From contig NC_059438.1 in assembly GCF_021028975.2 (NCBI RefSeq), forward strand, positions 21,204,001-21,268,000: a DNA stretch of 64,000 nt, read 5' to 3'. The position numbers and the translations under genes are program-made. This DNA is from Sphaerodactylus townsendi (Eukaryota). Below are positions 500-50,861 of the stretch, piece after piece (position 1 is the stretch's first letter; each line of letters opens with the position of its first letter). The notes beneath the pieces are model-generated. The model saw only the letters and a list, made by a program, of their open reading frames with translations, searched no databases and was not told the origin of the DNA.

Positions 500-623
500 C
501 AGGGGTGTCCAACTCTGGCGCCCCAGATGTTCAGGAACTACAATTCCCATTAGTCAGTGCCAGCATGGCCAATTGGGAATCGTAGTCCATGAACTTGTGG
601 GGTGCCAGAGTTGGACACCCTTG
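500..623. mobile_element. Palindromic hAT-type MITE (TIR caggggtgtccaactctggc)
   Basis: 8-bp TSD acataact (492-499 / 624-631); shared core, internally deleted. Confidence 0.85.
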
Positions 624-2510
624 ACATAACTGGTTTGCTGTGGCCAAAGGTCATATATTTTTTCTCAAGTTGCCTATTTCAGGGATAGTGGAGGTAGTAA
701 TTGGATTCTCGGATGTTTGAGGTGGGGGTAAGGATTTCATCGTTCTGGAATATTTTTCAGAACCTTGCTCAATTTTTTTGTAAGTCTTTCAGTTAAAAGC
801 AAGATTTGAAAATTGTGCTGACAAATCCCAGCACCCACGGAGTTTAATGCAAGATTAGAAGCCAAAAATCTCCCTTGCTGCTACAGTGGACATTAACTCA
901 TTTGTCTTCTGCTGCAATGTTACAATCCCCTTTCCAGTAAAGCAACCCCAACATTTAGTTCCCAGCACGACTTTGGGTGAGGAGGAATGCCAGCTCAAGT
1001 GATCAGAAGACTGTGTGCAACTTCACAAATTTCCTTGTTCAGGCGTAATGTTGCTCCATGTGCCAAGGCAAAGAGAAAATATATCACTATAATCTTTGTT
1101 TAAACTCTTGAGTTCTCTGTTAAGGCATTATGCACACTTAAAGTGCCATGACACCCACAGGCACCAGTATAGGGACTCCGATATTGGACTTACAAAAAAT
1201 TGAGCAAGGTGCTGAAAAATGTTTCAGAACGATGAAACCGTCACCCCCACCCTAAACATCAGAGAGGCCAGTGACTGTTGCCACTATACCTGAAATAGGC
1301 AACTTGGCTAGCTGCATATACAGCAGGCTAGCAGTAGGCTAACTGCATATACAACATTTGCAGGTTTCTGCATTTCTGTTCTCCGTTAGAAATGAGACGA
1401 TGATCCTAGGAAAATAATTACATTCAGTGTAATTATTTTCTGCTTTACGAATTTGCTCCCGTATGAAGGCTTTACTCGCTTGATCAAAACGGCCAGCTTT
1501 TTCCCAAGAGCCTTTGTGCCCTGTCTTGCAGGCACCTGGAGGGGAGCGACGTTGGTTGATTTATCAGTCCAGTACTTCACATGCTGTGATGTTGTCTGGG
1601 CTGATGAAAGGACCTGCGTAACAGTAGATGGGAGATCTGATTTCAGTTTTTTTTTACCAGCAACAGCTTCTTTGGGGAGCCGTTAATGGACATTCTTTCA
1701 TTCTCAGCATCAACAGGCTGCTGTTTCTTGCACGATATTACCTTTGATGAAGCAAATGACCCTGGTTTGCTAGATTATAACTGTGTGGTTATAACCGGTA
1801 AACACATCTTTGTGTCTGTTTTTTTCTCCTTCTGTTTTTTTATGCCTGATGCTGCAACAGGTCTCTATGCCTATTACTTTTTCTTGGAAAAGTTCTCATC
1901 TCAAAGTCAAACATGCCGACAATGGAGAAGATAATTACCCACCTGCAGTCATGTCCTTGTTTTTCCTTTTATGACCACTGTTTGTTTGGTCGTGGTGGAA
2001 AGAGAGAGCTTGACGATGCACAGTTTGTTGTGCAAACTGCCAAAAGTATCTCCGAAGCCTGAGATACGGGCTTTGTAAACCAAGCACATACTCTTGGCTT
2101 GCTGCTCCATATGGTTTGTGGTCTCTGCTGGCATCTGACATCTGTCCTTGGAAGGGCCCATAGGTCAGTGGCAGAGCACGTGTACAAAGATAACTGGCAT
2201 ATCAAGCTACAACATTTTGGGCAGTGTGGTTGGGAAAGAATTCTGAGATCTTGGGGACCTGCTGAAAGAGTAGATGACTGGACCAGGTGGTATGACTGGA
2301 TACAGGTCGGCTTTAAATTGTATACACACTTACATACCTATCTACCTACCTACCTACCTTTCAGTGCCTCCTGAAAATCTCCATGGAGGGAACTCACCTC
2401 TTCAGGGAACCCATTCCACAGAGCCAGAACCATGGTAGGAAAGGCCCAGTCTTTGGTCAATGAGAGGGTGGCCACTTTAAGTGGTGGGATAGCCAACAGA
2501 AAGATGACTG

Positions 2511-2634
2511 GAGTGCTACGTGGTTTCCGGCCTGTATGGCCGTGTTCTAGCAGCATATTCTGCTAGAACACGGCCATACAGCCCGGAAACCACGCAGCAC
2601 TCCAGTGATTCCGGCTGTGAAAGCCTTTGACAAT
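2511..2634. mobile_element. Penelope-like element remnant with inverted terminal structure
   Basis: 47-bp-arm hairpin plus tail gattccggctgtgaaagcctttgacaat; 13-bp TSD agaaagatgactg. Confidence 0.7.
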
Positions 2635-2821
2635 AGAAAGATGACTGATGACTCTCTCTGACACACAAGGACATTCACTTCATGTTCATTAGGTTTGATG
2701 TAAATGTTGCCTATTAGATTTTGTTCTTTATCTTCTCCTCTGGGTTGGTTGGTTAGTTGAAGATTGAAACATGTGTCCAGGTCACAGAGAGAGTCCTAGG
2801 GCAAATCATTTTGAGCTTTGT

Positions 2822-3093
2822 AGAAGAAGAGTTTGGATTTATAACCCCCTTTCTCTCCTGTAAGGAGACTCAAAGGGACTTACAGGTCCTTTCCCCTCCT
2901 CTCCCTACAAGAGATACCTTGTGAAGTAGGTGGGGGCTGAGAGAGATCTGAGAGAACTACTAGCCCAAGGTCATTCAGCAAGAATGTAGGACCAGGGAAA
3001 CAAATCTGGTTCCCCAGATAAGACTCCACCGCTCCTGTGGAGGAGTGGGGAATCAAACCCAGTCCACCTGCTCTTAACCACTACACTATGCTA
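2822..3093 (-). mobile_element. Squam3-like tRNA/CORE SINE
   Basis: Reverse complement of the 30908 copy; (CTT)n tail. Confidence 0.8.
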
Positions 3094-5167
3094 GAATGAA
3101 AAGAATAATGAATTACTTTGCTGTTCAAACTATACAAATATTGTCCTTCGACTTTTAAGGTTCCTTTCATACAGGCTGTTTAAGCCCATTTTGACTTTGG
3201 AAGGTAAATTGTGTGTGTTTTTTAAAAAAAAGTTTTACACACCTTTTAATCTAAGTTTCCTAAGCTATTTAGAACTTTTGTTTTGTTTTGTTTTATGATT
3301 CTTGGCTTTTATTCCTTACATGGGAGTAAAAAGAATATGTTTTCCTTCAGAAGCCAAAACAGGTTTAAAGAGCATGAATGAAAGGGACCGAAATCAGATA
3401 AAGGCTAGGCAGAACGAACTGTGTTGGTCTACTATCCATTCCGGACTCTAGTAAAATATGGTTTGCAGCTGAGGATGCTAGAATGACTTTTGTAGTCCAA
3501 AGACAGATACTTACAAGCAAAAGATTCTGTTCTGATTTCTTATTTTTGTTCTATTGATCTTCTCCATCCCACCCCACCCCACCCACACACACACTTCAAC
3601 ATGGAGATTTACTTTTTGCAGAGATTAGAGCAACCAACATGGTACTTTTGCAAAAATGAATCAACTCCTCCAGGTCCTAGACCTAGACAAAGAAATGACT
3701 AAAACTCGTCTTAGTTGTAACCTCAGCAGGATATATTCTTTCTTTTTTTTCCCAGGCAGGTGGCTTAATTAAATCAAGGCATGGATACGTACAGTACAGC
3801 AGGTGAAACCTCCAGTAGCATAAACAGATCAATAAACTGATTTGTGTTTGCTGACCAGAAGAGATTTCTAATTACCAGTGCTCTGTACTCCCCCGTTTTT
3901 GATGGTGCTGGAGTAATTAGAAGAGTAAAAAAAATCCAATTCCCTCTTGTGGGGGAGTTTGTTTCTGTTTAGCTCCACTTAGCTGGCCTGGTAATGCTGA
4001 CTCGTCTTTGGAGGCAGAATGTGGTAATTTATTTCCAGTTGTCTATTTTGGAACTTACTTTCTTAGTTCAAGAGCTGAGCTTTCTGACTTTGAGAGTGGA
4101 GGGTGCTTAATGCTTTCTGTAGGAGTTACATTTACAATTACAGAGTATAACATAGACTTGAAATAACGAATCTTTTTCAAGATTAATATATATTTTTTGC
4201 AACCAGTCCCGATTTGCCACCTACATATTGAATAAATACTAGTATTTTGGCTTTAAAAGAGAATCTTTGATCTGTTTAGATGACACTTAACAATTCTGAA
4301 TAGCAAGTTTCTCCTTAGCATGGTTTGGAAAGATGCTATACCAATTGGATTCTGAGTATAGTGTGTATCATGACATTACCCAGAACTGTTCTGCAGAGGA
4401 GAAAGTGGTCTGAGTCATGATCCAGCAAACTTCTTTAGATGTTCGGAAGGGCTCGTTCTTACCAGTGGTGTGTTTGACTCTTTCTCATCCAGCAGCATTA
4501 ATTAATTTTAAAATGACTGATTGTGATTAGCTCCCATTGGAAACAATTAGGAATGGGGCCCTTTTGGGGAGTCCATAACTTTGGATCTCCTGAACCAAAC
4601 TTCACCAGACTTGGGTGGTATCATCAGGAGAGTCTCCTGAAGATACCCTGAAATTTTGGTTCCACTAGCTTAAAACATGCACCCCCTACAGGCCGGAAAC
4701 GGGAAAAATAACTAAAAAATTACCCAAAAATGCGAACGAACCCAGGTAAACCAAATCAAGGATTTGGCTGATTCAGCTATACTGATAATTTTACAGCCAA
4801 ATGAAGCTGAACCCGAATTTTACCAAATTTTTTCAGTATTGCTCAAGCTTAATTGTGATATAGCATTGTGTGGCTTCTATCTTCATTTAGTTTCTTGCAT
4901 GCTTCTCTGAATTCTGACCCCTAATCCTTTCTCTCTTATGGCCAGTTGATATATATTCAGGAGATTCAGTGACAGTTTTCCTGGACTGTCTGTACCATTG
5001 GATTGTACCCTATCTGAAGTTTCTTACAGCACACAAACCTAGAATGCCAGGCTTAGTCTACTCTTCTTACTGGCTTGCTGCTATTCTCTGTGCAGTTGGG
5101 GTGTTTTGTTTGCTGGTTTATAGGCGTTTAGCTTGCAACAGCTCTGGCCCACCTGCCTGATGTAGTA

Positions 5168-5465
5168 GCTAGCGTGGTATAGTGCTTAAGAGAAGGTGGA
5201 TTGTAATCTGGAGAACCGGATTTGATTCCCCACTCCTCCACATGAGCGGCAGACTTATCTGGTGAACTGGATTTTTTCCACTCCTACACATGAAGCCTGC
5301 TGGGTGACCTTGGGCTAGTCACAGTTTGTTCAGAACTCTCTCAGCCCCACCTACCTCACAAGGTGCCTGTTGTGGGAAGAGGAAGAGAAAGGAGTTTATA
5401 AGCCACCTGGAGGCTCCCTATAGGGAGGAAAAGTGGGTCTAAATATAAACTCTTCAAACTCTTCT
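5168..5465 (+). mobile_element. Squam3-like SINE
   Basis: A-box gtggtatagtg, B-box-like tttgattcccc, CORE gggtgaccttgggctagtcac. Confidence 0.8.
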
Positions 5466-11189: not shown

Positions 11190-11340
11190 AGCCCCTTCCG
11201 CACATGCAGAATAATGCACTTTCAAGCCCCTTTCACAATTGTTTGCTAGTGGATTTTACTATTCCACACAGTAAAATCCAGCTGCAAAGTGCATTGAAAG
11301 TGGGTTGAAAGTGCATTATTCTGCATGTGCGGAAGAGGCC
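11190..11340. mobile_element. PIF/Harbinger-type palindromic MITE
   Basis: TIR gccccttccgcacatgcagaataatgcactttcaa, 3-bp TSD caa. Confidence 0.8.
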
Positions 11341-11495: not shown

Positions 11496-11955
11496 CAGGG
11501 GTCCCTAACCTTTTTCAGCCTGTGGACAACTTGTAAGTTCTGACATAAGGTGCTGGATACAACCACGAAAGGGCCACTGTGGGAGGCAGAGCCAACCCCC
11601 AAATGGCCACTGCTGGAGGTCACAGCACACACACAGAGAACCCAACTACAGGGGACCAGAAGAACAATTTTTTTAAAAAATGCATTAGCAAAGAGGAGCA
11701 AGAGAATTAACACACACTGTGGTGGCAGCTTGTGCCAAAACAACGTTATTTTAATATGGACGTCCAATCAGATTCCCCATCTAAAGCCCAGCTGGGCTGT
11801 TTGCCCCTCCTGGCCTTCCCCACTTTCTAAAAACACTGGGTTGAGTCAAGAAAAGATGACAATGGGTGTCATGAGCCTCTTGTGGGGGGTGGTATATAAA
11901 TGAAACATACAATAAACAATACAGTGGGACCATGGGTGCCACATTGAGACCCCTG
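11496..11955. mobile_element. Older non-autonomous hAT element in the PSKH1 3' region
   Basis: Termini caggggtc...gacccctg, TSD ctcttgtg/cccttgtg. Confidence 0.7.
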
Positions 11956-16199: not shown

Positions 16200-16226
16200 C
16201 CTGCTTTGAGCTCCCCCAAGGCGTGA

Positions 16227-16388: not shown

Positions 16389-16749
16389 CTAGAGAGACAG
16401 AGAGAGGAAGAATTTCACTTCAGTTTTACCAGATGCACACTTTATCGATGCCCACCTTTCTCACGTTATAGCATCTTACTCCATTTGGGTAGGAGAATGG
16501 GCTGCCTGCTAGGGGGTGGTTGACTTTTCACATATATATTCCGCTCTCTGTCCAAGGAACAAGGCTAGCAACCGGGGGAGTTTACTCCCATTTCACATTC
16601 ACAGTGTTGAGGGCATTTGGTTGCACGCACTGAAGGGGAGCCACAAGAAATGCATCTGCAGCTACTGCAGAGAAGCTGTCCTTAAACCTACAATTGCCTA
16701 AGGATTGCAGTGAGGTAGGCGGGGCCGAAAGAGTTGCTAGAGACTAGCC

Positions 16750-16897
16750 CAGGGGTAGGGAACCTGCGGCTCTCCAGATGTTCAGGAACTACAATTCCCA
16801 TCAGCCCCTTTCAGCATGGCCAATTGGCCATGCTGAAAGGGGCTGATGGGAATTGTAGTTCCTGAACATCTGGAGAGCCGCAGGTTCCCTACCCCTG
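16750..16897. mobile_element. Perfectly palindromic hAT-type MITE (TIR caggggtagggaacc), inside a SINE in CTRL intron 6
   Basis: 148-bp exact palindrome, TSD gactagcc on both sides. Confidence 0.92.
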
Positions 16898-17031
16898 GAC
16901 TAGCCCAAGGCCACCCATTAGGCTTCATGTGGAGTAATGGGGAATTGGATCCTGTTCTTCAGATCAGAGTCCACTGCTCCTAACCACTACACCAGGCTGG
17001 CCCTCTCTCCTTTGCTTAGTCACACTCTTAC

Positions 17032-20000: not shown

Positions 20001-20431
20001 TGGAGTGGTGTAGTGGCTAAGAGCAGGTGCACTCTAAACTGGGGAACCGGGTTTGATTCTACCACTTGAGCTGTGGAGGCTTATTTGGTGAACCAGATTA
20101 GCTTCTGCAACACACGTCAGCTGGGTGACCTTGGGGTTGGGGTCACAGTTCTTCAGGAGGTCTTCTTCAGTCTCACCCAATCTCACAGGGTGTTTGGTGT
20201 GTGGTGGGAGGGAGATTGTAAGTCTTTGAGTTCTCCCACATACAGCAGGGGTCTTCAAACTATGGCCCTCCAGATGTTCATAGACTACAATTCCCATGAG
20301 CCCTACCACTTGGCCATGCTGGCAGGGGCTGATGGGAATTGTAGTCCATGAACATTTTGAGGGCCATAGTTTGAAGACCCCCTGCCTTACAGAAAAGAAA
20401 GGGGGGTATAAATCCAAATTCCTCCTCCTCT
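20001..20431 (+). mobile_element. Squam3-like SINE interrupted by a MITE
   Basis: Same head, core and tail as the other copies. Confidence 0.75.
20246..20384. mobile_element. Palindromic hAT-type MITE (TIR caggggtcttcaaac) nested in a SINE
   Basis: TSD acatacag/ccttacag; shared core. Confidence 0.85.
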
Positions 20432-21965: not shown

Positions 21966-22568
21966 CAGGGGTCCCCAAACTTTTTAAACAGGGGGCCAGT
22001 TCACGCATGGCCAGATTTCCGCTGGCAGGACCAAGTTGATGCGTCACCAAGGGAGCACGATCCATCTGCTCCTCACCCCTCCCCCCGGCCGAGAGCTCCC
22101 ACCCCCCCCCGCCGTCCCCTTCCAATCCCGGCCCTGAAGCTCCGCCCGCCTTTCTTCTCTCACAGGTGCGGGTGATGCGGTCCCCTCTGGTCGCTTGGAA
22201 TGAGTAGCCACGCTTGAGGAGTTTTGTAAACTCCAGTCCAGGGTGCCAAGCTCCAGGGGCTGCCTTGGAGTTTGGGCACCTCGACCCCCTGGTGGTTACA
22301 AACAGCCCTGCCGGGCCACTCGCTGCTCATTCCAAGGCGGCCGGAGGGGACCCGCATCAATGCGACAAAGGGAAGAAAGGCAGCTCTGCTGCATTGGTAC
22401 GGTCCCTCCTCGCCAGCTTGGAATGAGCAGCGAGTCAGCCCGCGCTTAATGCTGTTTGTAAACCTGGGGAAAAGGGGAGATAGAGAAGGGGGGAGATCCG
22501 CTTCTGCCCAGCGGGTCGATAAATGCCCTCCGGCCTGATTTGGCCTCAATGAAGTTTGGGGACCCCTG
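21966..22568. mobile_element. Non-autonomous hAT element, OposCharlie1 (OC1)-like end, 603 bp
   Basis: TIR caggggtccccaaact, perfect TSD gtcttgag, GC/CpG-rich interior. Confidence 0.85.
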
Positions 22569-23143: not shown

Positions 23144-23865
23144 GAATCATAGAGTTGGAAGAAACCACAAAGACCATTAAGTCCAACCCCCTGCCGTGCA
23201 GGAACACACAATCAAAGCACTCCCAACGTACATTCATCCAGCCTCTGTTTAAAAACCTCCAAAGAAGGAGACTCCACCACTCTCCAAGGCAGTGATTTCC
23301 ACTGTCTAACAGCCCTGACAGTCAGAGTTCTTCCTAATGTTTAGGTGGAATCTCTTTTCCTGAATTTGAATCCACTACCTTACGTGTCTCTAGTTCAGTG
23401 GTAGTAAACCTTTGCCTATAATCAAGCATGGATTACAATTCATCATCAGCCCCTACCAGCATGGCCAATTGGCCATGCTGGCAGGGGCTGATGGGAATTG
23501 TAGTCCATAACATCTGGAGTGCCAAAGGTTCGCCACCATGGCCCTAGTCTCTGAGGCAGCAGAAAACAAGCTTGCTCCCTCTTCGACATGACATCCCTTC
23601 AAATATTTAAACAAAGCTATCATGCCCCCCCTTAATTGTCACTTCTCCAGACTAAACATCCCCAGCTCCCTAAGCCTCTCTTCGTAGGGCATGGATTCTA
23701 GACCTTTTACCACTTTGGTTGCCCTCCTCTGGACACATTCCGACTTGTCAATATCCTTCTTAAATTGCAGTGCTCAGAACTGAACACAGTACTCTCTAGG
23801 CAAAGTCTGAGCAATGCAGAGTAGAATTGTACAATTACTTCCCTCGATCTAGACACTGTACTCTA
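23144..23865 (-). mobile_element. CR1 LINE 3' fragment
   Basis: Reverse complement of the 58239 fragment; ends ctatgattc. Confidence 0.85.
23396..23541. mobile_element. Palindromic hAT-type MITE (cagtggtggcgaacc type) nested in CR1
   Basis: Shared core; degenerate TSD ctctagtt/ccctagtc. Confidence 0.8.
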
Positions 23866-24419: not shown

Positions 24420-24616
24420 CAGTGATTCTCAACCTTCCTAATGCCGTGACCTTTAATACAGTTCCTCCTGTTGTGGTGACCCCCAACCATAAAATTATTT
24501 GTGTCTTGGTTCCTAAGACCATTGGAAATATGTGTTTTCCGATGGTCTTAGGCGACCCCTGTGAAAGGGTCGTTCAACCCCCAAAGGGGTCGCGACCCAC
24601 AGGTTGAGAACCACTG
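24420..24616. mobile_element. SPIN (Space Invader)/URR1-like non-autonomous hAT MITE in CTRL intron 1
   Basis: cagtgattctcaaccttcctaatgcc...gtggtgacccccaaccataaaattatt...ggtcgcgacccacaggttgagaaccactg matches recalled URR1/SPIN termini; TSD ctctccaa/ctctagaa. Confidence 0.85.
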
Positions 24617-25631: not shown

Positions 25632-25770
25632 CAGGGGTCTGCAACCTGTGGCTCTCCAGATGTTCATGGACTAAAATTCCCATCAGCCCCTGCAAGTTGG
25701 CCATGCTGGCAGGGGCTGATGGGATTTGTAGTCCATGAACATCTGGAGAGCTGCAGGTTGCAGACCCCTG
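25632..25770. mobile_element. Palindromic hAT-type MITE (TIR caggggtctgcaacc) upstream of CTRL
   Basis: TSD gactaggg/gactagtt; shared core. Confidence 0.85.
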
Positions 25771-27589
25771 GACTAGTTTGAATCGCCGTGTTGCCATGAA
25801 GCTTCTTGGATGACCTGGGAGAATGGCATCTCTGTTAGCCTAATCCTACCTCTCAGGGGGGTTGTAAGGATAAAATGGAGGAAGGATAAAATATTATTTA
25901 CCTCCACCAGGAAGAAGACGACCAAGGTGTACAAAATAAAAATGTTATTAGCCACACTAGCAAAGTGAGATGGTTGTGCACAATCTTCTGTTATGCTGTT
26001 ACAAGTGGCAGATACCATTTCCCTTGTAGGAAAATCTGAAGTGTTAGACTTGCCCATTCTTCTCCCCACAAACCATTTCCATAGTGGCGGGTGCTGAGGG
26101 CTCATGCCCACTTACTTCTCTTTGCTGCCTGAGTTATTGTGCACATGCACAGTTGTTCATGTGCACAGATATCCCAGGCAGCAAAGAGAAGCAAGTGGGC
26201 ATGAACCTTTACTCAGCTGAAGCTGGGATTTCAAGCACATGTGTCACATATGGGATGTCCCAAGTCAAACCCTGGTAAAAGACACTGTGGGAAACTAACT
26301 GTGCAAAACCCAGACCCAGATGGCCCAGCTTAACCTGGTATCATCAGATGTAGAAGCTAGCCGGGTCAAGCTGATGGGAGACCACCAAGAAGCCCAGGAT
26401 CACTTGAGGCAAGCAATGGCAAATACCTCTGTTCTTCTCTTGCCTTGAAAACCTTGGCTGTGACTTGTGGGCACTTTGCGCGCACAGTTGTGCAGGGCGA
26501 CCTTATTGCTCAAATGTGGCCTACATGGACGACAAATTCCACAACTGCATGCTAGGAGCTCTCAGGCTGAAGCTTTAGGCAGGGAGGCTGGGACAGGCTG
26601 GAGCAACTGGGGAAGCTGCAGGATTGGAAGCCAGTTAGTGTGTTACATGAAATGTCTCCAACTGGATCAGGATGAAGGAGTCTGTACAATGTTCCTGCCA
26701 GTTTTCTAGCTCCCGGTCTCCTTCCTGGAGTCCACAAGTCTTTCCCAAGGACATTCACTCCATGCCCTTCACCATGTTTACTTGGCTTTGCAAAGCCATG
26801 GGTGGGAATGGGATGACAAGAGGGAGTGCCTGACTGTGTATCTGAAGTGTCATGTGCTAAACATGTGTGCATGTCCCACGGTAGCTCCTTGTAACAGGTG
26901 TGAAGAAGACCTACTTTCCCAGGGGCTGGTGATTGGCCAGTAGTGTTTGGGACAACCATGTCATTACATTTGCTGGCAAGTTTTGCTCACAAACAGATCT
27001 GCACACCATTTAGCCATGAACCCGAAGGCCAAACTTGGAAGGGGGGAGTGATAAGAAACAGGAGAAATGAATGTTTTCATTAAATGGTAAGAAACCCAAA
27101 TGCCGTTTTTAAACACAGCTGATCTTTTGGAACACCATATTGGAATCTACCCAATGGTGGCACTTCGGATTCTCTATGTCACTTGACCCAACTTTCTCAG
27201 TTTTGCATGTATTTCTCAACATTACTTTTTCTCCACTGTGAGCATGTTGGCTCACCGATGAGCAATCCTGTTTATTTCCCCTGAAATAAGAACTTGCCTT
27301 TCTGCAGAAAAGGTACGGTTTTCACCTGTAAGAAGACATGCAAATTTTGTTTACTCTTCATTGTGGTCTCTGAGCACTCAAGATATTTTAATCTGTGCAT
27401 AATTTTGTTTGGGACTTTCTAAAGTTTCCTGGCTTCCCTTCCCAAGAACCTGTTGTCCCATGTTGTAGGTTTAGGATTGTGAAAACTCTTTCCTCAACGG
27501 GTAAGCATGATATGGGGCACCCTAGCTCCTTTTTATTCCTAAGCTTTCCTAAGGGTCTAGCTGGCCAGATTCTAGTCACAGTGTGCAGT

Positions 27590-27660: not shown

Positions 27661-29914
27661 AGTCCAGGAATTCAGTTTCACCCTATATTTTATGAGCCAT
27701 ATCTGAAATGACATAACTATTATATCTTGGCTTGCAGCCTGAGCTTCAGCCCTGCCCCTCAGACCTTTGGACCATAGTAAAGTGTACCTATTTCTCCCCA
27801 ACCCCTGCTTGGATTATGTGGTGATGACATCTGGGATTGCCAATTTTGGCTTGGGAAATTTCTGGAGATTTGGGAGCAGTGCCTGGGGAAGTTTGGGGAA
27901 GACGCTGTTCCGGAACAAGGCTGGGAAAATCATTGCTGTACTTCTACCACTCAGCACATACGTATGACAGGGAAAGCCACACCACCTAGAAGTCATGGGC
28001 AATTTGGCTGCAAAGACCCAATTTGAGCTTTTAAAAAGGGAAGATCAAGAAAAGAGGAATTTGGCCTGCTTACAAAGTTTTTGGGAAGTGAGTTGCCACA
28101 TTTCTGAAGTTTACCTCAGTTCTCCCTTAGAACAGGCCCTTAATCCTCAATACCATACACCAGTGTTCTATAAGCTTTCTAGCAACCTGGCATGGCAATT
28201 CATTGCAGTCCTCTTCAGGGCATTGGGAACACCGCCAGGCCAGAACAGGGGGGCGGGGCCATTTGGCATGGGCCTACGGTTTTGAGGGGACCTATGTGAA
28301 GAAGGGGTAACCACTTCAGATCTGAAATTCTGAATCAACACGAACGTACTGTTGTATTTACTGCCTTTTATTACAGTACTGTACATTTGCTCTTGTTCAT
28401 ATAAAGGGTCTCCGCACATGAACAGTCAAAAGCAGCTCATAGCACTGTGCGCACGGTTTGTGTGACTACACTTTGTACGTTAAACATGTGCGTAAGTCTC
28501 ACGCTGTATGTCTGAAAGGCAGGTGTGTGGCAGAACTGGCGTTCCCAGGGGTTAGCTGCCCGGCAACTCTGGGAGAAGTGATTAGATGCCTAGTTCTTCT
28601 AATCAAATATGCTATTATTTTTGTTCAAACCAAAATATTGAAGCTGGAAATTTGTGGGAAGTAAATGACCGCAGGTTTTAATGGGGAAGTTTAAGAAAAC
28701 TTGACACAGCAGGTCCTTGTCCTCAGCACTCCCCACTGGGAAATTCCCCCAGTTCTTACAGTCAAGTGCCATTCAACTATCCGGTACACCAGTGGGGCAT
28801 AATGGGGTTAAAATGTTGGGTTAGGATGTGGGAGAGCCAGGTCAGAGCCCCTTCTTTGCCACTGAAGCTCATTGGGAGACCTTGGGCCAGTCATGCTGTT
28901 TCAGCCTAACCCACCTGACAAAACTTCTTTACCTGTAACTTCACCTCTCCAACACCTTTCCAACATTAAGTTGGAAAATTCCTGGAAATTTGTTTTTTTT
29001 TGGGGGGGGGGGGGAACCTAGAAGGGTGTGGGGTTTTCAGAGGTAGTCTCATTTTCTGTTCTTTTTTTAAGGTCCTCACTCTGTATTTTAAACGCCGTGT
29101 AATTTTTTTTTGTTTTCTTTTCATATTAAACCCTCTAAAATGTTTAATAATTTGCATTTGTATTTCACATGCTGCAACCCATAGTATCTTTTTGCTCAGG
29201 CTGGCTAGATTGTTTCCCCATTAATTCTGAGTTTCTTTTGTTCCTGCTCCAGAAAAATTATAATACATATTTTGGTCATCAGAAGAACCACATTTGGGTT
29301 CCTGGTGGGGACAGTTTTGGGGTGGAAGATTAGGGTGCATATTCTCCAAAGCCCGTTCTCTACAGCAGGAAAGTTAATAGAAATCAATTTTTTCAAATAT
29401 GGAACAGGCAGACGCTTAACTGGGGGGGGGGGGCGGGGGGGCAAGGGACTCAAGCCCCAGGCACTCCTTGGGGAGGTGCAGGAAGAGCCCCCGCCCCAGT
29501 TGATCTAGGCTGGCCTTGCTGGCTGGACGTAAGTTAGCTTTAATGGTAAAGCAACCAAAGGCTTTTGTAGTGGGGGTGGCGGTGGCAGTGAAAGGGGGGA
29601 GGTAATCCACATTCCCCTTTTGCCACTATCACTGGTCACTTTAATTAAGATTAACTTACTTTCAGGTGAATGGTGCTATGGCTGGGAGGAGACTGGAGGG
29701 CAGAGACGGGCCAGGGAAAGAGCGCCCTTCCCACCCTCAGCCTCCTCCCAGTCACAGCCCCTCTCACCTGAAAGTAAGTTGATTTTAAAGCAACCAGAGG
29801 TGCTTTTAATAGACCACTCCCCCCATTCCACCAAAACTCTCTTCCTTTGCCCTTCCTGTCTCTTTCTCTCTCTCCCCCTCTTTCACTCTCTTCCCCCTCT
29901 TTCTCTCTGGATGC

Positions 29915-31545: not shown

Positions 31546-32347
31546 CAGGGGCATAATGCCCATTGGGCAAGGTGGGCAGCTGCCCAGGGCATCACCTTGT
31601 GGGGGGCATCAAAATCCAGGGTTCGTTTTTGGGTATTTTTAGTGGTTTTCCATTTTTGGCCTGCAGGGGCGCAATTTTTAGGCTAGAGGCACCAAATTTG
31701 CAGTGTATCATCAGGAGACTGTCCTTATGCTCCCCGCCCCCAAGTTTGGTGAGGTTTGGTTCAGGGAGTCCAAAGTTATGGACTCCCAAGGGGGTGCCCC
31801 ATCCCCCATTGTTTCCAATGGGAGCTATTTCCAGGGGGAGCTAATTTCCAGGGGGAGCTAATAGGAGATGGGGCTACAGTTTTGAGGGTCCATAACTTTG
31901 CCCCCCGTGAACCAAACTGCACCAAACCTGGGGGGTATCATTAGAGCAGTCTCCTGATGAGACCCTGAAAGTTTTGAGACTGTGCCTTCAGAAATGTGCC
32001 CCCCAGCCTGCAACCCCCATTGACAGCAATGCAGAAAACCCAATGCAGAACAAAGATTCTTGGGCAAATTTCTGGTATGTTCCTGCAGGGGGCGCATTTT
32101 TGGATGTATCTGCACCAAAATTTCAGGGTATCATCTGGAGACTGTCCTGATGGGATCCCCCAAGTTTGGTGCAGTTTGGTTTAGGGGGTCCAAAGTTATG
32201 GACCCTCAAAAGGGTAGCCCCCATATCCTTAGCAAGAAATGGGAGATGGGGCAAAAAAATTTTGGTTGTGGTGGAGTGGCTGCCCATGGTGGGCGGCATC
32301 CAACTCAGGTTTTGCCCAGGGCTACAGTTTGCCTCGTTATGCCCCTG
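31546..32347. mobile_element. Non-autonomous hAT element (802 bp) with internal subrepeats, inserted in an RTE fragment
   Basis: TIR caggggcataa / ttatgcccctg, perfect TSD gaaaagag; recurring internal units such as gtccaaagttatggac and gtatcatcaggagactgtcct. Confidence 0.85.
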
Positions 32348-32368: not shown

Positions 32369-32508
32369 GGCCCCTTCCGCACATGCAGAATAATGCACTT
32401 TCAATGCACTTTGCAGCTGGATTTTACTGTGCGGAATATCAAAATCCACTTGCAAACAGTTGTGAAAGTGGATTGCAAATGCATTATTCTGCATGTGCAG
32501 AAGGGGCC
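32369..32508. mobile_element. PIF/Harbinger-type palindromic MITE (same family as 11190)
   Basis: TIR ggccccttccgcacatgcagaataatgca, 3-bp TSD cat. Confidence 0.82.
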
Positions 32509-33778: not shown

Positions 33779-34792
33779 ATGGCCCTCTACAATACCTCAG
33801 AGCTGGAAAGGAACAGCACAGTGACAGAGGAGGAGCGTGAGTCCATCTCTGTGTTCCCAAGTATGTTCCTCCTTGTTTGCTTCCTGATTGGAGTCCCTGG
33901 GAACGGCTTTGTGGTCTGGACTATTCTGACCAAGTTCTTCAAGCGTTCCTTGACCCTTCTTCTCATCCTGAACTTGGCTGTCACAGACTTAATTGTCATG
34001 AGCACTGTACCATTCTGGATGTACTCTTTCCTCTACGGCTGGGTCTTTGGAGATGTGTTTTGCAGAGTCCTCAAGTTCCTTGTCTACTTGACCATCTACG
34101 CCAGCATCTTCTTAATCACGCTGATGAGCCTCCATCGTTTTGCCGTCGTGATCTTCCCATTTGCTTCCCAAAAGTTGTGGCGGCCGCGGGCAGTGCACTG
34201 TGCGTTGCTGATGCTCTGGCTGGCTGCCTGTCTTTTTGGAAGTCCAATTCTGATTGTGTCCTCGAAACCCAAGAAGGAAGGAATCTGCACAGATGAAATG
34301 TACTACACGGATCAACAGCGAATAACGGTGAACTTTGTGGAGACTCTGTTTGGCTTTGTGATCCCGTTCACCGTGATGGCTGTCTGCTACTCCTGTGTCT
34401 TGAAAAGGCTTCGGATGCTGAAGAGCCATAAGAAAATGAAAACCGGGAAGCTAATTGCAGCTGTGGTCCTCTCTTTCTTCGTGTGTTGGCTCCCTTACCA
34501 CGTCTTCAACATCCTCATAAGTGCAGCACTGATGCTGAAAACGGAACGCCCGGAGACGGCAAAAACCTTGCTAGGAGTGACCAAAGTGGCAACGAACATC
34601 CACGGGGCTGTAGCCTTTGTCAGCAGCTGTCTGAACCCGATCCTGTACGCCTTTGCCGCGCGGAGCTTTCGTGGAGGGCTCCGGGAGACCAATTTTGCCA
34701 AGTTGTTCGCGAAAATTCACGAAGACTCCGAAGAAAAATCTGCCTTGGAGAAGTCTACAGGGGACAGTGGTCTTTCAACGGAGAAGTTGTAG
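33779..34792 (+). CDS. Leukotriene B4 receptor (BLT1/BLT2)-like class A GPCR, intronless, 337 aa
   Basis: ATG in a strong context (gcagcATGG) at 33779; the ORF-track start at 33704 is a TTG. Seven TM segments with GVPGNGFVVW, LNLAVTD, FCR, YASIFLITLMSLHRF, ETLFGFVIPF, CWLPYHVFN and SSCLNPILYAF, matching BLT-family signatures; N-glycosylation sequons NTS and NST. Orthology to LTB4R is not established, so no symbol is given. Confidence 0.92.
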   Translation: MALYNTSELERNSTVTEEERESISVFPSMFLLVCFLIGVPGNGFVVWTILTKFFKRSLTLLLILNLAVTDLIVMSTVPFWMYSFLYGWVFGDVFCRVLKFLVYLTIYASIFLITLMSLHRFAVVIFPFASQKLWRPRAVHCALLMLWLAACLFGSPILIVSSKPKKEGICTDEMYYTDQQRITVNFVETLFGFVIPFTVMAVCYSCVLKRLRMLKSHKKMKTGKLIAAVVLSFFVCWLPYHVFNILISAALMLKTERPETAKTLLGVTKVATNIHGAVAFVSSCLNPILYAFAARSFRGGLRETNFAKLFAKIHEDSEEKSALEKSTGDSGLSTEKL

Positions 34793-38211: not shown

Positions 38212-38525
38212 CTGTGGGGGGAGAATAAGACAGATGGCAAATTACCTCTCCTTGGCCCTCTTGCTGACAATCACTCCCCAAGTGTCTTCAGAAGCCCCAA
38301 AAGTCCACTACTTCACCTTGTTTCCTCAGCTGCCCCTCAGTCACACAGATGTTCAGAATCACAACAGGCAATTTCCACTTCCAGTTTGGGAAACCAAGTT
38401 CCAACTTGGCTGCCTCTAGGTGTGGGCATGAATAGGGTTACCAGCTCTGGGTTGGGAAATACCTGGAGATTTGGGGGTGGGATTTGGGGAGAGGGGGGAG
38501 CTCAGCGGATTATAATGCCATAGAG

Positions 38526-38662
38526 CATAGGTGTCAAACTCGCGGCCCTCCAGATGTTATGGACTACAGTTCCCATCATCCCCATGCCAACATCATGCTG
38601 GCATGGGGATGATGGGAACTGTAGTCCATAATATCTGGAGGGCCGCGAGTTTGACACCTGTG
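38526..38662. mobile_element. Palindromic hAT-type MITE (TIR cayaggtgtcaaactc)
   Basis: TSD ccatagag/ctgtagag; nested in a TAGGGTTGCC-type element. Confidence 0.85.
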
Positions 38663-39405
38663 CTGTAGAGTCTACCCTCCAAAGCGGCCATTTTTTCCTG
38701 GGGAACTCATCTTGATTGCTCAAGGATCAGTTGTAATATTGGGAGATTTCCAGGTGCCATCTGGAGGTGGGCAACCCTTTGCTGGCAATAAAAAGCAGCA
38801 TGGAAACTGCATCCACCTGTCTTGTTCCCTTACTGCATACTCTGCAGCTGTCCCACCCCTGCCCCTACATGCTGTGCCTTGGTACTCCCCCATTAGATGT
38901 AGGGACCCAGAAAAAAACCTGGAAGAAATGGAAGAAAAAACCCTAATATTTTTCATGAGGTCTTTAAAATATTTTTTCCAATGAAAATATTGGGAAGTCA
39001 AGGGAATGCTGGAAAAAACCCTCCTATGAAATAGTTCCCCTTTTCAAATGAGTGAAATGTTTTTAAAGAGCAGGTGGGCATGCTGTAAACACATACCGCT
39101 CTTAACTACAAGATGTATTTTTGCACTAGAAGGAAAAGTGGAGAAGTGGGGAATCAAACCCCATCTTCATGAAGATAGCATGCAGAACTTTGATTGTTTC
39201 TGTGGCCCTTTTGACCTGACTCTTCTCTTGTGGTTGACGTTTGCACGTCTTCCTCAAACCAGTATGACACATATAGCCGCAGACTGGGTAAAGTAGCTTA
39301 TTGCCTATATTGCTAAAGGTGGGGAGATCAGATGGGGCAGAAACTGCACGGAAGCCTCAGCAGAAAGCTCTGGAAATTTCACTGAGAACTGAGTTCTCTC
39401 TAACC

Positions 39406-39847
39406 CAGGGGTAGGGAACCTGCGGCTCGAGAGCCGCATGCGGCTCTTCTGCCCTTGCACTACGGCTTCACAAGCTGAGCCGCCGGCCCCATCCTTGCCC
39501 ACCCTGCAGGCAGAAAGGCAGGCGCACCAACTGCCTGCGGTTGGCTGGGTCGCGCCGTGGGCTTCCCCTCTCGCCCGCCCCATTTGAGCGGGGCGGGTGC
39601 TTTCCCGGCGGCCGGCAAGGCCGAGCCACTGACCCCATCCTTGCCCGCCCTGCAGGCAGCAGGGCAGACACATCCTTGCGCTTCTCAGAATGAGCGGAGT
39701 AAAAGGTAAAAAAAAAACCCCCTATATATATATATAGTGTTATCTTTATTTTAAATGTCAAAAATTATTTGCGGCTCCAAGTGTTTTCTTTTCCCGTGGA
39801 AAACGGGTCCAAATGGCTCTTTGAGTGTTAAAGGTTCCCTACCCCTG
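39406..39847. mobile_element. Non-autonomous hAT (Charlie-type) element, 442 bp
   Basis: TIR caggggtagggaacct / aggttccctacccctg, perfect TSD ctctaacc, CpG-rich interior (probably young). Confidence 0.9.
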
Positions 39848-40157
39848 CTCTAACCAGTAGCCACAGAAAGGAGAAGACAGCATTTGACTGTGCAGAGCTG
39901 TGCAGATCTTAGTACTATCTCCTTGTGTAAACAAATATGCATTTTATTTACCAGAAATCTGAAGAAAATTGGTGTACAGAGGCAAAAAAGAGCGCCAGAC
40001 AAGTTGGGCCCACATGAGGCACAAAATCATCTGGATGTTCTCCTTTATGGCACGGGCTTCCTGTTTAGTGTTGCCAATTCCTGGCTGGTAAATTCCTGGA
40101 GATTTGGGGGATAGAACTAGGGGAGGGAGTTGGGAGGGACTCCAGCAGGCTATAGTG

Positions 40158-40305
40158 CAGTGGTGGCAAACCTATGGCACTCCAGATGTTCAAGGACTAC
40201 AATTCCCATCAGCCCCTGCCATAATGGCCAATTGACCAGGCTGGCAGGGGCTGATGGGAGTTGTAGTCCATGCACATCTGAAGTGCCATAGGTTTGCCAC
40301 CACTG
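40158..40305. mobile_element. Palindromic hAT-type MITE (TIR cagtggtggcaaacc)
   Basis: Perfect TSD ctatagtg; nested in a TAGGGTTGCC-type element. Confidence 0.9.
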
Positions 40306-40556
40306 CTATAGTGCCATAGAATCCACCCACCACAGCAGCCTCCAGGGGAAGTGATCCCTGTAGCCTTCAGAGCAGTTGTAATTCTGGGAAATCTCCAGGT
40401 CACAGCTGGAGGTTGGCAACCATGTTCCTGTTTTTCCCTGAATAATGGCATCCACATGTGGAAGTAGGTAGACCACACCAACTACTGAGAGCTGTATTTC
40501 CTTTGGCAGGTGCCAGATGGCGGTACAGCTAACTTCCTAATATTTGGGTGCCTTAC

Positions 40557-44984: not shown

Positions 44985-45107
44985 CTGACATGCAAGAGGA
45001 AGAAAGGGAAAGAGATGAATGGGAATCAAAACCCCTGACCTTCCTTCTGCAGCCGGGTCCCCCTCTCCTCCCCTACATGGGTCTTCTTCTGGCCCACTTC
45101 TTCTCAC

Positions 45108-45533: not shown

Positions 45534-45651
45534 CTGCACTTTGACAACATATGTCTCTTCCAGGTAATCTATCAAGTCCGCAGCAAGCAGGGGCCTCAAG
45601 GTAGAAACATCCACTTCGGGGAGAAGGTTTGGGTGTGCCATCATTTCCGCA
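45534..45651 (-). CDS. EXOC3L1: EXOC3L1 coding exon 5 (AEMMAHPNLLPEVDVS...VVKVQ)
   Basis: 118 nt, canonical splice sites. Confidence 0.93.
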
Positions 45652-46904: not shown

Positions 46905-47580
46905 CTAGGGTAGACATGGAGAGCCCAGTGAAGGACAGCAAAGATCTCCTGCTTGTCCACGTCGTGAGTGAGGATTTGATGGAAGTGGTGCGTGAGGCTC
47001 TGGTGATACATGGCAGCAAAGGTCGAGAGTATGTTGTAGTGAGGCGGGCAGCATTGGACCATTAGATCTTTCACAATGCACAGTTCAGCCAGGATGGCAC
47101 TCTGCAAGGAAGCCAAGTACTTGGAGAGGGACCATCCCTGGGCCTCTCTGGGTACAGTCTGGAAGTGGGCGGCCACTATGGTGTCCTGGATGACCTGAAA
47201 GAACTTCTGCCGCCAGCCCTTTGGCCGTCCTGGTGGGAGGAAACCAGGGACCTGTGATCTTCGCAGCAGCACAGCATCGATGCCCTCTTCTCGCTCGATA
47301 ATGCGCACAGCAGAAACAAAGAGGGAAGGGTCCTCCAACATCAGCTTCAACCCATGGGCCACAATATGCCATAGCTGCTGGGCCAGGGCCTTATTCAGTT
47401 CCTGGAGGCCCCCAAAGTAGGATTCTATGCTGGCCAGGTAGGAAGGGCTGAGCAGGTTGTGGTCATGCAGTTGGGACAGGATGCCACCTTGCAAGCTCTC
47501 CAGGTTCATGAGCCCCATGTGAGCTTCCAGAAGATGCTGACGTTGCAAGAGGTTGAAACTCTCAGAAAGGAGTTTGTGAA
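46905..47580 (-). CDS. EXOC3L1: EXOC3L1 coding exon 4 (HKLLSESFNLLQRQHLLEAH...LHWALHVYP)
   Basis: 676 nt, Sec6-domain sequence, AG|gtcagt donor. Confidence 0.94.
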
Positions 47581-48869
47581 CTGTGCAAGGAAGAGGAGAA
47601 GGAACAAGGAGAAGATGTTCAAGGTCTCAAGATTGTGAACTGGACGCTGAAGGAAATTTTGAGGGGGACCAGCTACCTCAAGTGTCTTGGAAGAAGGGGT
47701 AGGATTTCCTACCTGTAGATGAGGCCTGAGGATCCCCCAGAACTACAGCTGACCTCCAGATGACAGATATGAATTCCCCTGGAGAAAATGGCTGCTTTGG
47801 AAGATTCTATGGGATTACACTCTGCTAAGGCTCCACCCCCCAAACCTAGTCCTCCCCAGGCTCCACCCACAATCTTCAGGAAAGTCCCAAACCAGAACAG
47901 GCAACTCTAGGAAGAGGTGAGAGAACAAAAATGTCAACGAGAGTGACAGAAATGATGCAGACCTAGAAAATAAGTATCATATCACCAGTTTTGCTGCCTA
48001 GATAGAAGATTGTTTATTTAATTCATTTCTGCTCTACCTTTTTTCCCAAATAGGGACCTAAAGTACTTTTTACAATGTTCTCTTTCCCTCCATTATATCC
48101 TCACATCTACCATATGAAGTACATTGAAGCTGAGAATGTGTGACTAGTCCATGATCACCAAAATATGGAACAGCAAAGATTCAAACTTTGGGCCTCCCAC
48201 ATTATAGTCCAACTGCTACCCCATATAATGAATCAGTGAGTTGAATCAAGCAGTCATTTTCTCCTTGGAAGGTTACTTTAATTGCAGTCACTCCATGTTG
48301 GATATGCACTGGCTTTAAATGGGAAAAAAACCCCAAACGCTAACATTGTTAACATATGAATGATAAGTTTATAAGGACTTCCATCATTTTTCACATCTTT
48401 GTAGAACGTTGAATCAATCCATCAAATAACTCAATGGCCATTGATTCACGTGTGGTCACCTTAGTTTTGATCGTACATTCCCTTCGAATTTGATTCTCGG
48501 TTACACATTCGTTTTCCCCTTGTTGGCAGTCACCCCGTCCATAGATCAGAGAATCCCCACGGTTTCAGAATTCTCTTACGGAGTGACTTTTTGTCTCCCT
48601 TTGGAGGGAAAGTGAAGGAGATGACCATGCATGAAGCTTTCCTTGATTTTTCTTGCTCTTTTTCGCCTTTGTCTGCCCATACCAAAGTAGCTCCTCTCAC
48701 GCTTTTTGATGGGGGCCAGCAGGCCACCCTTTCAGGACAACCAGAGGAGTTTCTTCTTTATTTTCATGGAAAAGGTCTATCGCTGGAGCAGTGAATCCAG
48801 TGAAATAGATAAGGCTGGGTTTGTTAACAAAGCTTTTGCCAGCCTTCCTTTTTATAATTATAATTATAA

Positions 48870-48870
<1 letters not shown>

Positions 48871-48920
<50 letters not shown>
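48871..48920. repeat. (TTA)n microsatellite
   Basis: About 16 units. Confidence 0.95.
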
Positions 48921-49959
48921 GGATTTAATATACCGCCCTATCCCCGAAGGGCTCCTTGTCTCCTCATCACCAGCTGTCACTGCCTTTTTTCTTTCCTCCC
49001 TTCCTCCCCAGACTCCTGCAAGACAAGTTTTTATTGCTCAGCATGGCAGACTCTGTTTTTTCTTATCAGCTGGCAGGTCTATGAACTAACGCTACACCAA
49101 ATACAACAACAACAACAACAAAAAGGTGGCAGGCAACCTCCCCAAATGGAGGCTGTAGGGAAACAGCAGGAGACAGATGGGCAAAATGGTGGATTAGTTT
49201 GGATAAAGACACTTCACAGGAGGGTGTCTTATATAAACAAAAAACCATGGGGGGAAAGAAGAGTGTAAACAGGAAAATTCTACTTCAAAGCAAACTTAGG
49301 GAACGATGGTTATTCAGCTGTGTGGTAAGTAATGCATACACGAATAGAAGAAAATTCCAACCAGCTTTTGGTAGCCTGTGAGTGGAAGATGTCTTTTGCT
49401 TCCTTCTATTTCTATTTCTACTTCTGCTGATGTGTGATTGTGTTTGTTTTTTAAATCTGATGTAAACAACTTTGAGTCCCATTGATCAGGGGACAGATTA
49501 CAAACATTTCAGATAAATAGATAAAATAGCCAGATGCCTGTTTCAGGAATTATTGTGGCTGTTTTCAGCCACTTTCTTTAAAGACTTCTGAATAGTCACT
49601 AATTTATCCCCTGCTGTTCTTCCCAAAGTAGTGTACATCATTCTCCCCTCCCTCGTTTTGTCTTCACAACAAACCTGAAAGGTAGGTTAGGCAGACGGAG
49701 GGTGACTGGCCCCAGGTCACCCAGCAAGCTTGCATGACAAAGTGAGGATGTGAGACTGCAGACTTTAGTCCAGCTCTCTGACCACTGTACCACACAGGCT
49801 CATGTGCTAAAGTTTCACAAGACAGGGGTTAAAAATGTATACCTGCTGTTCAGTGACTTCAGAGTTTCCTTGCAGTGGTGAAAAAAGAAAGAAAGAACCA
49901 TGCTCCAGAACCCACCCTCAGAACAGCACGGTGGAGGAACCGTGCCAAGAATGCCTCAC

Positions 49960-50179
49960 CTGAGAAAAGCTGCGGCAGTGTGCTGACAACCGAACCAAGC
50001 TGGGTGTGTTCCAGCGCCACTTCCCGTAGCAGCTGCAGGCTCTGGAAGGATCCTGCGCTGGACGCCAACTCCTGCTGCACGCTTTCCAGGGCTTGCCTCA
50101 CATGATGAATGTCGGCCAGGGCTGAATGGAGCTGCTCCAAGCCTGTGCTCATCCCCTCTAGGTAGGACTGCACAGTAGA
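49960..50179 (-). CDS. EXOC3L1: EXOC3L1 coding exon 3 (STVQSYLEGMSTGLEQL...LPQLFS)
   Basis: 220 nt, canonical splice sites. Confidence 0.93.
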
Positions 50180-50287
50180 CTATGGACAGGGCAGAGTGAA
50201 AGTAGAGTAGCAAGGCAGGCGTTCACACCTGACAGGCAGTATTAGAGGGGATATTAAATACTAGGAGAAGGGATATGGCTCAGGGGC

Positions 50288-50636
50288 AGAAGAAGAAAAA
50301 GTTTGGATTTGTACTCCACATTTCTCTCCTGTAAGGAGACTCGAGGCAGCTTACAAACTCCTTTCCCTTTTTCTCCCCACAACAGGCACCTTGTGAGGTA
50401 GGTGGGTGAAAGAGTCCCGAGAGAACTGTGACTGGCCCAAGGTCACCCCATCAGGCTTCATGTGTAAGAACAAGAAAACAAATTCCGTTCACTAGACGAG
50501 AGTCCACTAATGTGCAGGAGTGGGGAAACATAAGCAGTTTATCAGATAAGAGTCCTCTGCTCGTGTGGAGAAGTGGGGAATCAAACCGGGTTCTCCAGAT
50601 TAGAGTCCACTTCTCTTAACCACTACACCACACTAC
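50288..50636 (-). mobile_element. Squam3-like SINE with a duplicated head segment
   Basis: Reverse-complement copy; gtggggaa...ccagat segment repeated. Confidence 0.78.
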
Positions 50637-50715
50637 TTTCTGAGGTAGGCAGTATTTGCTTTTCATCAATTCGGTATGTGATGCGATTCTTTTAACATCG
50701 CAGAAAGCCCTAGAA

Positions 50716-50861
50716 CAGTGGTGGCGAACCTTTGGCACTCCAGATGTTATGGACTACAATTCCCATCAGCCCCTGCCAGTATGGCCAAGTGGCCGGGCTG
50801 GCAGGGGCTGATGGGAATTGTAGTCCATAACATCTGGAGTGCCAAAGGTTCGCCACCATGG
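50716..50861. mobile_element. Palindromic hAT-type MITE (TIR cagtggtggcgaacc)
   Basis: Perfect TSD ccctagaa. Confidence 0.9.

What the first reader, a model, noticed from the sequence alone, without database searches (positions are those of the whole stretch)
500..50861. One palindromic MITE core with six different hAT termini
Seen: eight 124-148-bp elements (500, 16750, 20246, 23396, 25632, 38526, 40158, 50716) share the inner palindrome ccagatgtt-(c)atggactacaattcccatcagcccctgccagcatggccaa|ttggcc... Their outer ~22 bp differ: caggggtgtccaactctggc, caggggtagggaacctgcggctc, caggggtcttcaaactatggccc, cagtggtggcgaacctttggcac (three copies), caggggtctgcaacctgtggctc and cataggtgtcaaactcgcggccc. 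All have 8-bp TSDs with TA at positions 4-5. The first 23 nt of the 16750 copy are identical to the left end of the otherwise unrelated 442-bp hAT element at 39406, and are used at both ends. Inference: a persistent parasitic core repeatedly acquires the terminus of whichever hAT transposase is active and copies it to the other arm, i.e. serial transposase switching.
Basis: partly seen in the sequence, partly recalled or inferred. Interest (0 to 1): 0.7.

Follow-up and report, generated by a model that had tools for sequence, protein, structure and literature searches.

The report
Gecko hairpin transposon swaps its ends
A tiny hairpin-shaped jumping DNA, abundant in a gecko genome, keeps one shared middle but carries the ends of several unrelated transposons, which it likely captured one after another so that whichever transposon enzyme was active would keep copying it.

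Summary
Real. Eight 124-148-bp palindromic elements in a gecko window share a ~50-bp arm core but differ in their outer 22-23 bp. All have 8-bp TA-centred target duplications (4 perfect, 4 at 6/8). Termini differ far more than cores (both-arm differences 33/184 vs 11/314). Two termini match the left ends of core-free hATs beyond the 16-bp TIR: 23/23 to a 442-bp element in the window and 22/23 to published autonomous OC1. A third matches a core-free hAT family of other animals (weaker test). The rest resemble Anolis TIRs only. In a relative about 3% diverged, the 442-bp element's site is empty and the 16750 site probably so, while copy 40158 is present, hinting at a time order. Best reading: repeated end capture at a shared GGCnC motif plus arm copying (inferred, 0.65). 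New here: 13 of 16 arms carry the THAP11/ZNF143 motif ACTACANNTCCCA, the best-kept part of the core; function untested. 'Six transposases' is not shown; about four end clades. No genome, Dfam or Repbase was available. Ten paper searches found no description of this pattern.

The parts
500..623 (.). Palindromic MITE, GTGTCCAACTC-type 22-bp ends, asymmetric shortened centre; perfect TSD
   Evidence: this end type recurs as a genome-wide loose-end consensus in 4 of 4 runs
16750..16897 (.). Perfect-palindrome MITE; both ends equal the left 23 bp of the 442-bp hAT; perfect TSD; probably absent in organism C
   Evidence: record 25 leaves the window at 16751 with 48 letters left
20246..20384 (.). MITE with OC1-type ends (22/23 to OC1_Das-Auto left end), centre deletion, TSD 6/8
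23396..23541 (.). MITE of the 50716 family; left arm strongly decayed, right arm intact; TSD 6/8
25632..25770 (.). MITE with CTGC/GCGGCTC-type ends, centre deletion shared with 20246; TSD 6/8
   Evidence: end type genome-wide in 4 of 4 runs
38526..38662 (.). MITE with GTGTCAAACTC-type ends, inserted in a ~200-bp host repeat; TSD 6/8
40158..40305 (.). MITE with HT1-like ends (variant), perfect TSD; present in organism C
   Evidence: records 19 and 23 run into its two ends
50716..50861 (.). MITE with HT1-like ends (15/16 to hAT-HT1_AC TIR), perfect TSD
39406..39847 (+). 442-bp ordinary asymmetric non-autonomous Buster-type hAT without the core; donor-type end for 16750; empty site in organism C
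   Evidence: record 19 bridges 39397 to 39848; relatives L008, L035, L079 at both ends
21966..22568 (-). 603-bp OC1-type non-autonomous hAT without the core, perfect TSD; shows OC1 was in this genome
   Evidence: the end at 21966 matches the OC1_Das right end at 37 of 39 nt (read by eye)
24420..24616 (-). 197-bp SPIN-type non-autonomous hAT without the core
   Evidence: TIR as SPIN
16788..16800 (+). THAP11/ZNF143-type motif ACTACANNTCCCA in the left arm (example; 13 of 16 arms)
16847..16859 (-). Mirror copy of the motif in the right arm (example)

Best explanation
One non-coding hairpin core in a gecko genome carries, at both ends, 22-23-bp termini of which at least two match the left ends of unrelated Buster-type hAT transposons, and it likely gained them by repeated end capture and so likely rode successive transposases. 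Shown: shared core, divergent termini, TA-centred 8-bp TSDs, left-end identity for two end types, junction right after a GGCnC motif common to all ends. Inferred steps: (1) a new hAT lands beside an old MITE, whose TSD is itself a preferred target, or serves as repair template; (2) a microhomology deletion or template switch at GGCnC joins the new left end to a core arm; (3) fold-back copying makes the other arm identical; (4) the symmetric product is amplified by the new transposase. Speculative: the core's paired ACTACANNTCCCA sites bind a host factor (THAP11/HCF-1 or ZNF143) and make such short ends usable.
For: Both-arm differences 33/184 in termini vs 11/314 in cores. No terminus-core correlation. 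23/23 to the 442-bp left end and 22/23 to OC1_Das-Auto left end, with an OC1-type element in the same window and none of six core words in the OC1 consensus file. Crude chance of either match from the profile of the other termini about 2e-7 per candidate family. In ordinary relatives bases 17-23 are left-end specific, yet the MITEs have them at both ends. Core variants cross end types: missing C in 23396, 50716 and 38526 but not 40158; GGAAC variant in 500L and 16750; centre deletion in 20246 and 25632 but not 16750. Empty site for the 442-bp element and probable empty site for 16750 in organism C, where 40158 is present. Contigs with a 38526-type end adjoining a 39406-type start: 12 in X5, 5 in X4, 1 in X1. 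Precedent for inverse duplication of a subterminal end in the Goblin MITE (PMC3814204, passages).
Against: Only 8 copies could be read whole; no genome was held. No gecko transposase was found. Three end types (500, 38526, HT1-like) are tied only to 14-16 nt of Anolis TIRs. The CTGC match came from a pattern that fixed most positions; 9 of 32 allowed variants of bases 8-11 were seen, and the 16750 variant in 0 of 118 loci. 16750 and 25632 ends are only 3-4 bases apart. The four-gamete test is not clean: 25 of 28 terminus-terminus column pairs also fail it. The adjacency joints have sides of 20-23 letters, which the tool flags as unreliable. The 442 family and the 16750-like ends are abundant in organism C too, so their activity is not confined to after the split. 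Both arms of 20246 differ from OC1 at one base.
Confidence: 0.65

Rival explanations
1. Stepwise convergence: a weakly cross-mobilised MITE gains point changes that fit a newly arrived transposase, arm-to-arm conversion fixes each in both ends, and the terminus comes to resemble the new left end without any DNA being captured.
For: All Buster ends share a frame, so only 3-10 changes separate the types. 40158 vs 50716 and 16750 vs 25632 look like small steps. 20246 is one base off OC1 in both arms.
Against: Full 23/23 identity includes bases 8-11, which vary freely among close relatives with the same subterminal motif. No intermediate ends stood out among the best-supported loose ends (817 rows not shown). 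Whole-arm resets such as 16750 (500L-type core variant in both arms) fit one-step copying.
Confidence: 0.15
2. Core traffic: each hAT had its own palindromic MITE, and cores were homogenised afterwards by ectopic conversion among very many copies, so the cores moved between ends rather than ends onto a core.
For: Incongruence is symmetric. Copy density is high (8 per 64 kb; core depth about 1e5 times the flank). The uneven decay of 23396's arms hints at one-arm conversion.
Against: It needs homologous cores to begin with; OC1 and the 442-bp element contain none, so a first capture is still required for each.
Confidence: 0.1
3. Neutral drift under one tolerant transposase lineage: the ends simply mutated, arms co-evolved through the hairpin, and matches to other hATs are chance.
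Against: Ends, which a transposase must read, differ more than the core. Matches of 23/23 and 22/23 have crude odds near 2e-7 each. End types are discrete genome-wide families.
Confidence: 0.07

Closest known systems
Non-autonomous Buster/Charlie-type hATs of Anolis (hAT-HT1, hAT-HT2, SPIN partners; orphan hAT-N1 to N8; Novick et al., PMC3014272; read: text parts 2-3, Discussion part 1, passages; supplements unavailable)
   Same: 8-bp NNNTANNN-type TSD, 16-bp TIRs of the same frame; orphans that share only TIRs with an autonomous family; end swapping between hobo subgroups by recombination; hAT-N1_AC is a 135-bp element with 57-bp TIRs and a SPIN-type end, a likely Anolis counterpart (only its first 20 bp are printed).
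   Different: The paper describes no single core shared across different transposase families, and no use of a left end at both sides.
OC1 / OposCharlie1 and its MITE OC1_Das_NA (PMC3621081; read: passages and supplement passages)
   Same: Left 23 bp match 20246 at 22 positions; horizontally transferred, present in lizard by its table.
   Different: OC1_Das_NA is an asymmetric internal deletion of OC1; none of six core words is in the OC1 consensus file.
Core (HCD) SINEs with exchangeable LINE tails (PMC11481361; abstract only)
   Same: A conserved centre persists while the part read by the partner enzyme is exchanged.
   Different: Those are RNA-mediated retroelements with one swapped 3' tail; here a DNA transposon changes both ends symmetrically.
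Goblin MITE of Aedes (PMC3814204; passages)
   Same: Long TIRs made by inverse duplication of a subterminal end; microhomology at junctions; template-switch model.
   Different: All of Goblin derives from one parent element; no foreign, reused core.
THAP11 binding site / SBS2 / M4 promoter motif (PMC3627581 and PMC7154149 passages; PMC5006282 listing only)
   Same: 13 of 16 arms match ACTACANNTCCCA, 14 of 16 match ACTAYRNNNCCCR; 14 nt are identical to the printed SBS2.
   Different: The downstream ZNF143 half matches at only 5 of 11 bases in the common core; binding untested; the published TE source is MLT1J, a retroelement.

Membership tests
Non-autonomous hAT (Buster group) MITE | 8-bp TSD, TA at positions 4-5 | tested here: met
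   4 of 8 perfect, 4 of 8 at 6/8, TA in 16 of 16 flanks
Non-autonomous hAT (Buster group) MITE | About 16-bp TIR of the Buster frame, YARNG start | tested here: met
   the right ends of 23396 and 50716 and both ends of 38526 depart at bases 2-4
Non-autonomous hAT (Buster group) MITE | Short, non-coding, high copy | tested here: met
   124-148 bp; 8 in 64 kb; 9,029-41,405 contigs laid per run (the tool warns depth is no copy number)
Non-autonomous hAT (Buster group) MITE | Mobilised by a hAT transposase | not testable with these tools
   inferred from TSDs and a probable empty site
Internal-deletion derivative of OC1 | Interior homologous to OC1 | tested here: not met
   0 of 6 core words in the OC1_Das consensus file
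Internal-deletion derivative of OC1 | Distinct left and right subterminal ends | tested here: not met
   20246 has the left-type end at both sides
Internal-deletion derivative of the 442-bp family | Interior homologous to the parent | tested here: not met
   similarity stops after base 23; core absent from 39406-39847
Anolis hAT-N1_AC | Sequence identity of the 57-bp arm | not testable with these tools
   only 20 bp printed; supplements unavailable; its SPIN-type end is on none of the 8 copies
THAP11/ZNF143 (SBS2/M4) site | ACTACANNTCCCA submotif | tested here: met
   13 of 16 arms, none elsewhere in 64 kb
THAP11/ZNF143 (SBS2/M4) site | Downstream ZNF143 half-site | tested here: inconclusive
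   5 of 11 bases against the single printed SBS2 string; no matrix was available
THAP11/ZNF143 (SBS2/M4) site | Occupancy in vivo | not testable with these tools
   no gecko ChIP or ATAC data
Structured RNA gene (Rfam) | Match at gathering score | tested here: not met
   one tRNA-like hit in the window, none on the elements

The most novel reading that the evidence does not exclude
The core is a portable, host-factor-driven transposition enhancer: paired THAP11/ZNF143 sites on a hairpin let any Buster-type 23-bp end work, although such short ends are nearly inactive in a tested Buster element, so the same core has been re-armed by each horizontally invading hAT across lizards and perhaps other vertebrates, a DNA-transposon counterpart of core SINEs that also scattered a housekeeping promoter motif through the genome.
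Probability: 0.2. Interest if true: 0.8.

Novelty: new variant of a known kind. Interest (0 to 1): 0.55.

Why it matters
Most MITE families are thought to die with their transposase, and the origin of orphan MITEs is an open question (PMC3814204, Introduction passage). A core that is re-armed by each invading hAT would give a concrete route for orphan MITE origin and long survival, and a dated record of horizontal invasions. It is directly testable with a gecko assembly and cell assays. If the core makes 23-bp ends work, it is also a possible minimal-end design for Buster vectors, since 24-bp ends of AnBT were inactive and 41-64-bp ends nearly so (PMC12637253).

Tried and rejected
No whole genome held, so no genome-wide clustering. 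Six viral-contig scans for core or termini found nothing. The metagenome scan for the paired core motif found nothing. The genome-contig scan gave 5 single-motif prokaryote hits, treated as chance. No autonomous transposase lay inside any element delimited among the metagenome loci. A search of those loci for the other termini with up to 2 mismatches found no direct match for 500, 38526 or the OC1 type; one HT2-like left end (L044) has the same GGCCC continuation as 20246. Status of 38526 in organism C was uninformative; X1 showed no differences from the window in its orthologous pieces and gives no outgroup. The four-gamete test was run and judged weak. Ten paper searches found no description of the core or of one core with several hAT ends; the library lacks most subscription papers, Repbase and Dfam. 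PMC12676858 and PMC2997546 (passages) were not relevant. The hAT-HT1 left end beyond 16 bp could not be obtained. Rejected: assembly artefact (terminus-flank junctions recur in independent runs); RNA gene; tandem or chance palindrome.
Full report
Context. The window is from a gecko: a GPCR ORF at 33779-34789 has its five best named relatives in geckos (79-87%), the next at 64% or less. Trypsin-like, Sec6 and E2F exons lie nearby. No whole genome was held, so genome-wide evidence comes from contigs of public runs laid on two stretches and from collection scans.

Observation. The eight elements are present at the stated places, are the only core matches in the window, and fold as hairpins far beyond shuffles. 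All 16 flanks have TA at positions 4-5; 4 TSDs are perfect and 4 match at 6/8. The first 23 nt of 16750 equal the left end of the 442-bp element. Corrections: 20246 runs to 20384; the 'three copies' are one family of two (23396, 50716) and a variant (40158); the six ends form about four groups.

Ends versus core. In the alignment of 16 arms, differences carried by both arms of an element number 33 of 184 cells in the first 23 columns and 11 of 314 in the core (cells are not independent, so the Fisher p of 1e-7 overstates). Mean between-element distance is 0.29 for ends and 0.12 for cores, with no correlation (Mantel rho 0.12, p 0.31). Ends are what a transposase reads, so drift predicts the opposite. 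Three core characters cross end types: a missing C (23396, 50716, 38526, not 40158), a two-base variant (500L, 16750) and a centre deletion (20246, 25632, not 16750). Against: 25 of 28 terminus-terminus column pairs also fail the four-gamete test, so that test alone is weak.

Are the ends real families? Laying four runs on 16660-16930 put 9,029-41,405 contigs per run on the element; summed depth over the core was about 1e5 times the unique flank, which the tool says is no copy number. The best-supported loose ends in all four runs rebuild the 25632-type and 500-type ends with TA-centred flanks (24 rows shown, 817 not). The end types are therefore discrete genome-wide families.

Do they belong to other hATs? 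(a) 16750: 23/23 to the 442-bp element, which is an ordinary asymmetric hAT with relatives in other animals at both ends (84% over 62 bp, 88% over 100 bp). (b) 20246: 22/23 to the left end of autonomous OC1_Das (PMC3621081 supplement). An OC1-type element without core lies at 21966-22568 (37 of 39 nt to the OC1 right end, read by eye), and none of six core words occurs in the OC1 file. A crude profile estimate puts each match near 2e-7 per candidate family. (c) 25632: 12 of 118 metagenome loci (many redundant) begin with this end and continue as core-free hATs, e.g. L026, 854 bp; none of the 118 has the core motif. This is weaker, since the pattern fixed most bases and 9 of 32 allowed variants of bases 8-11 appeared; the 16750 variant was in none. 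(d) The rest match only Anolis TIRs from PMC3014272 Table 1, compared by eye: 50716 to hAT-HT1_AC 15/16, 500 to hAT-N5_AC 14/16, 38526R to the family listed as TcMar-N15_AC 16/18. In ordinary relatives bases 17-23 differ between left and right ends; the MITEs carry the left form twice, and in each case similarity stops right after GGCnC.

Time order. Organism C is about 3.4% diverged (52 differences in 1,546 aligned bases of five pieces). One of its contigs bridges 39397 to 39848 contiguously, an empty site for the 442-bp element, and runs 23 nt into 40158, which is thus present; another starts inside 40158's right end. At 16750 its contig leaves the window at 16751 with 48 letters unplaced, which fits an empty site but the letters were not printed. 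So both elements with the 16750-type end postdate the split at these loci while 40158 predates it: 2 against 1. The 442 family is also abundant in organism C, so its activity was not only recent.

Mechanism. Shown: anatomy and matches above. Inferred: a new hAT lands next to an old copy (old TSDs are ideal targets; joints of a 38526-type end to a 39406-type start occur in 12, 5 and 1 contigs, though with short sides) or acts as repair template; a deletion or template switch at GGCnC joins its left end to a core arm; fold-back copying rebuilds the palindrome; the new transposase amplifies it. Inverse duplication of an end by template switching was proposed for the Goblin MITE (PMC3814204), and end swapping within hobo subgroups is reported in Anolis. 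I put this at 0.65, stepwise convergence at 0.15, core traffic at 0.10 and neutral drift at 0.07.

Why this core? Abundance alone may suffice. But 13 of 16 arms carry ACTACANNTCCCA, the THAP11/HCF-1 motif that overlaps ZNF143 sites (PMC3627581), found nowhere else in the 64 kb, and its specified bases vary less than the rest of the core (4/176 vs 50/416 cells, non-independent). The ZNF143 half is only partly matched (5 of 11 against the string). In a tested Buster element, TIR-only ends were inactive and 41-64-bp ends nearly so (PMC12637253), so success with 23-bp ends suggests the core supplies something. This is untested. Unchecked earlier notes report the same motif in hAT MITEs and as head-to-head pairs about 70 bases apart in other vertebrate genomes (spacing here is 61-71); they are leads only. 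I also recall similar palindromic cores with varied ends in other lizards and frogs; that is recall and comes from no call.

Known versus new. Each piece (orphan hAT MITEs, TIR sharing, recombination, core SINEs changing LINE partners) is known. One DNA-transposon core capped by left ends of several hAT families was not found in ten searches. Dfam, Repbase, most subscription papers and the Anolis supplements could not be seen, and the families may well be catalogued there one by one. Verdict: real, new variant of a known kind, interest 0.55.

Noticed in passing
window 38433-38776 and 40066-40421: MITEs 38526 and 40158 both sit in copies of the same ~200-bp host repeat, at TA-centred 8-mers about 8 bp apart: a target hot spot.
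   Followed up: partly
window 23396-23468: Left arm has 21 differences from its own right arm in 63 columns, while the right arm is identical to 50716R; a 13-nt stretch is replaced and its first 9 nt occur nowhere else in the window. Possible one-arm conversion or error-prone hairpin repair.
   Followed up: partly
window 11191-11339 and 32369-32508: A second palindromic repeat family with a different core, two copies 85% alike.
   Followed up: no
window 2504-2609, 26099-26207, 29645-29788, 31663-32229, 63242-63317: Further single palindromic elements unrelated to the core.
   Followed up: no
window 11496-11955: 460-bp hAT-like element with TSD 7/8 and a decayed end carrying TGGCACC, close to the motif in the 500-type end.
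   Followed up: no
window 39474-39521 and 39620-39667: Direct repeat inside the 442-bp element; contigs of runs X4 and X5 show ~170-bp deletions between the repeats.
   Followed up: no
window 22286-22469: Imperfect internal palindrome within the 603-bp OC1-type element.
   Followed up: no
window 60632-60700 (-): tRNA-like Rfam hit, 37.7 bits, possibly a SINE head.
   Followed up: no
PMC3014272 Table 2, TcMar-N15_AC: Its printed TIR matches the 38526 right end at the first 16 bases, which suggests it may be a hAT listed as Tc1/mariner.
   Followed up: no
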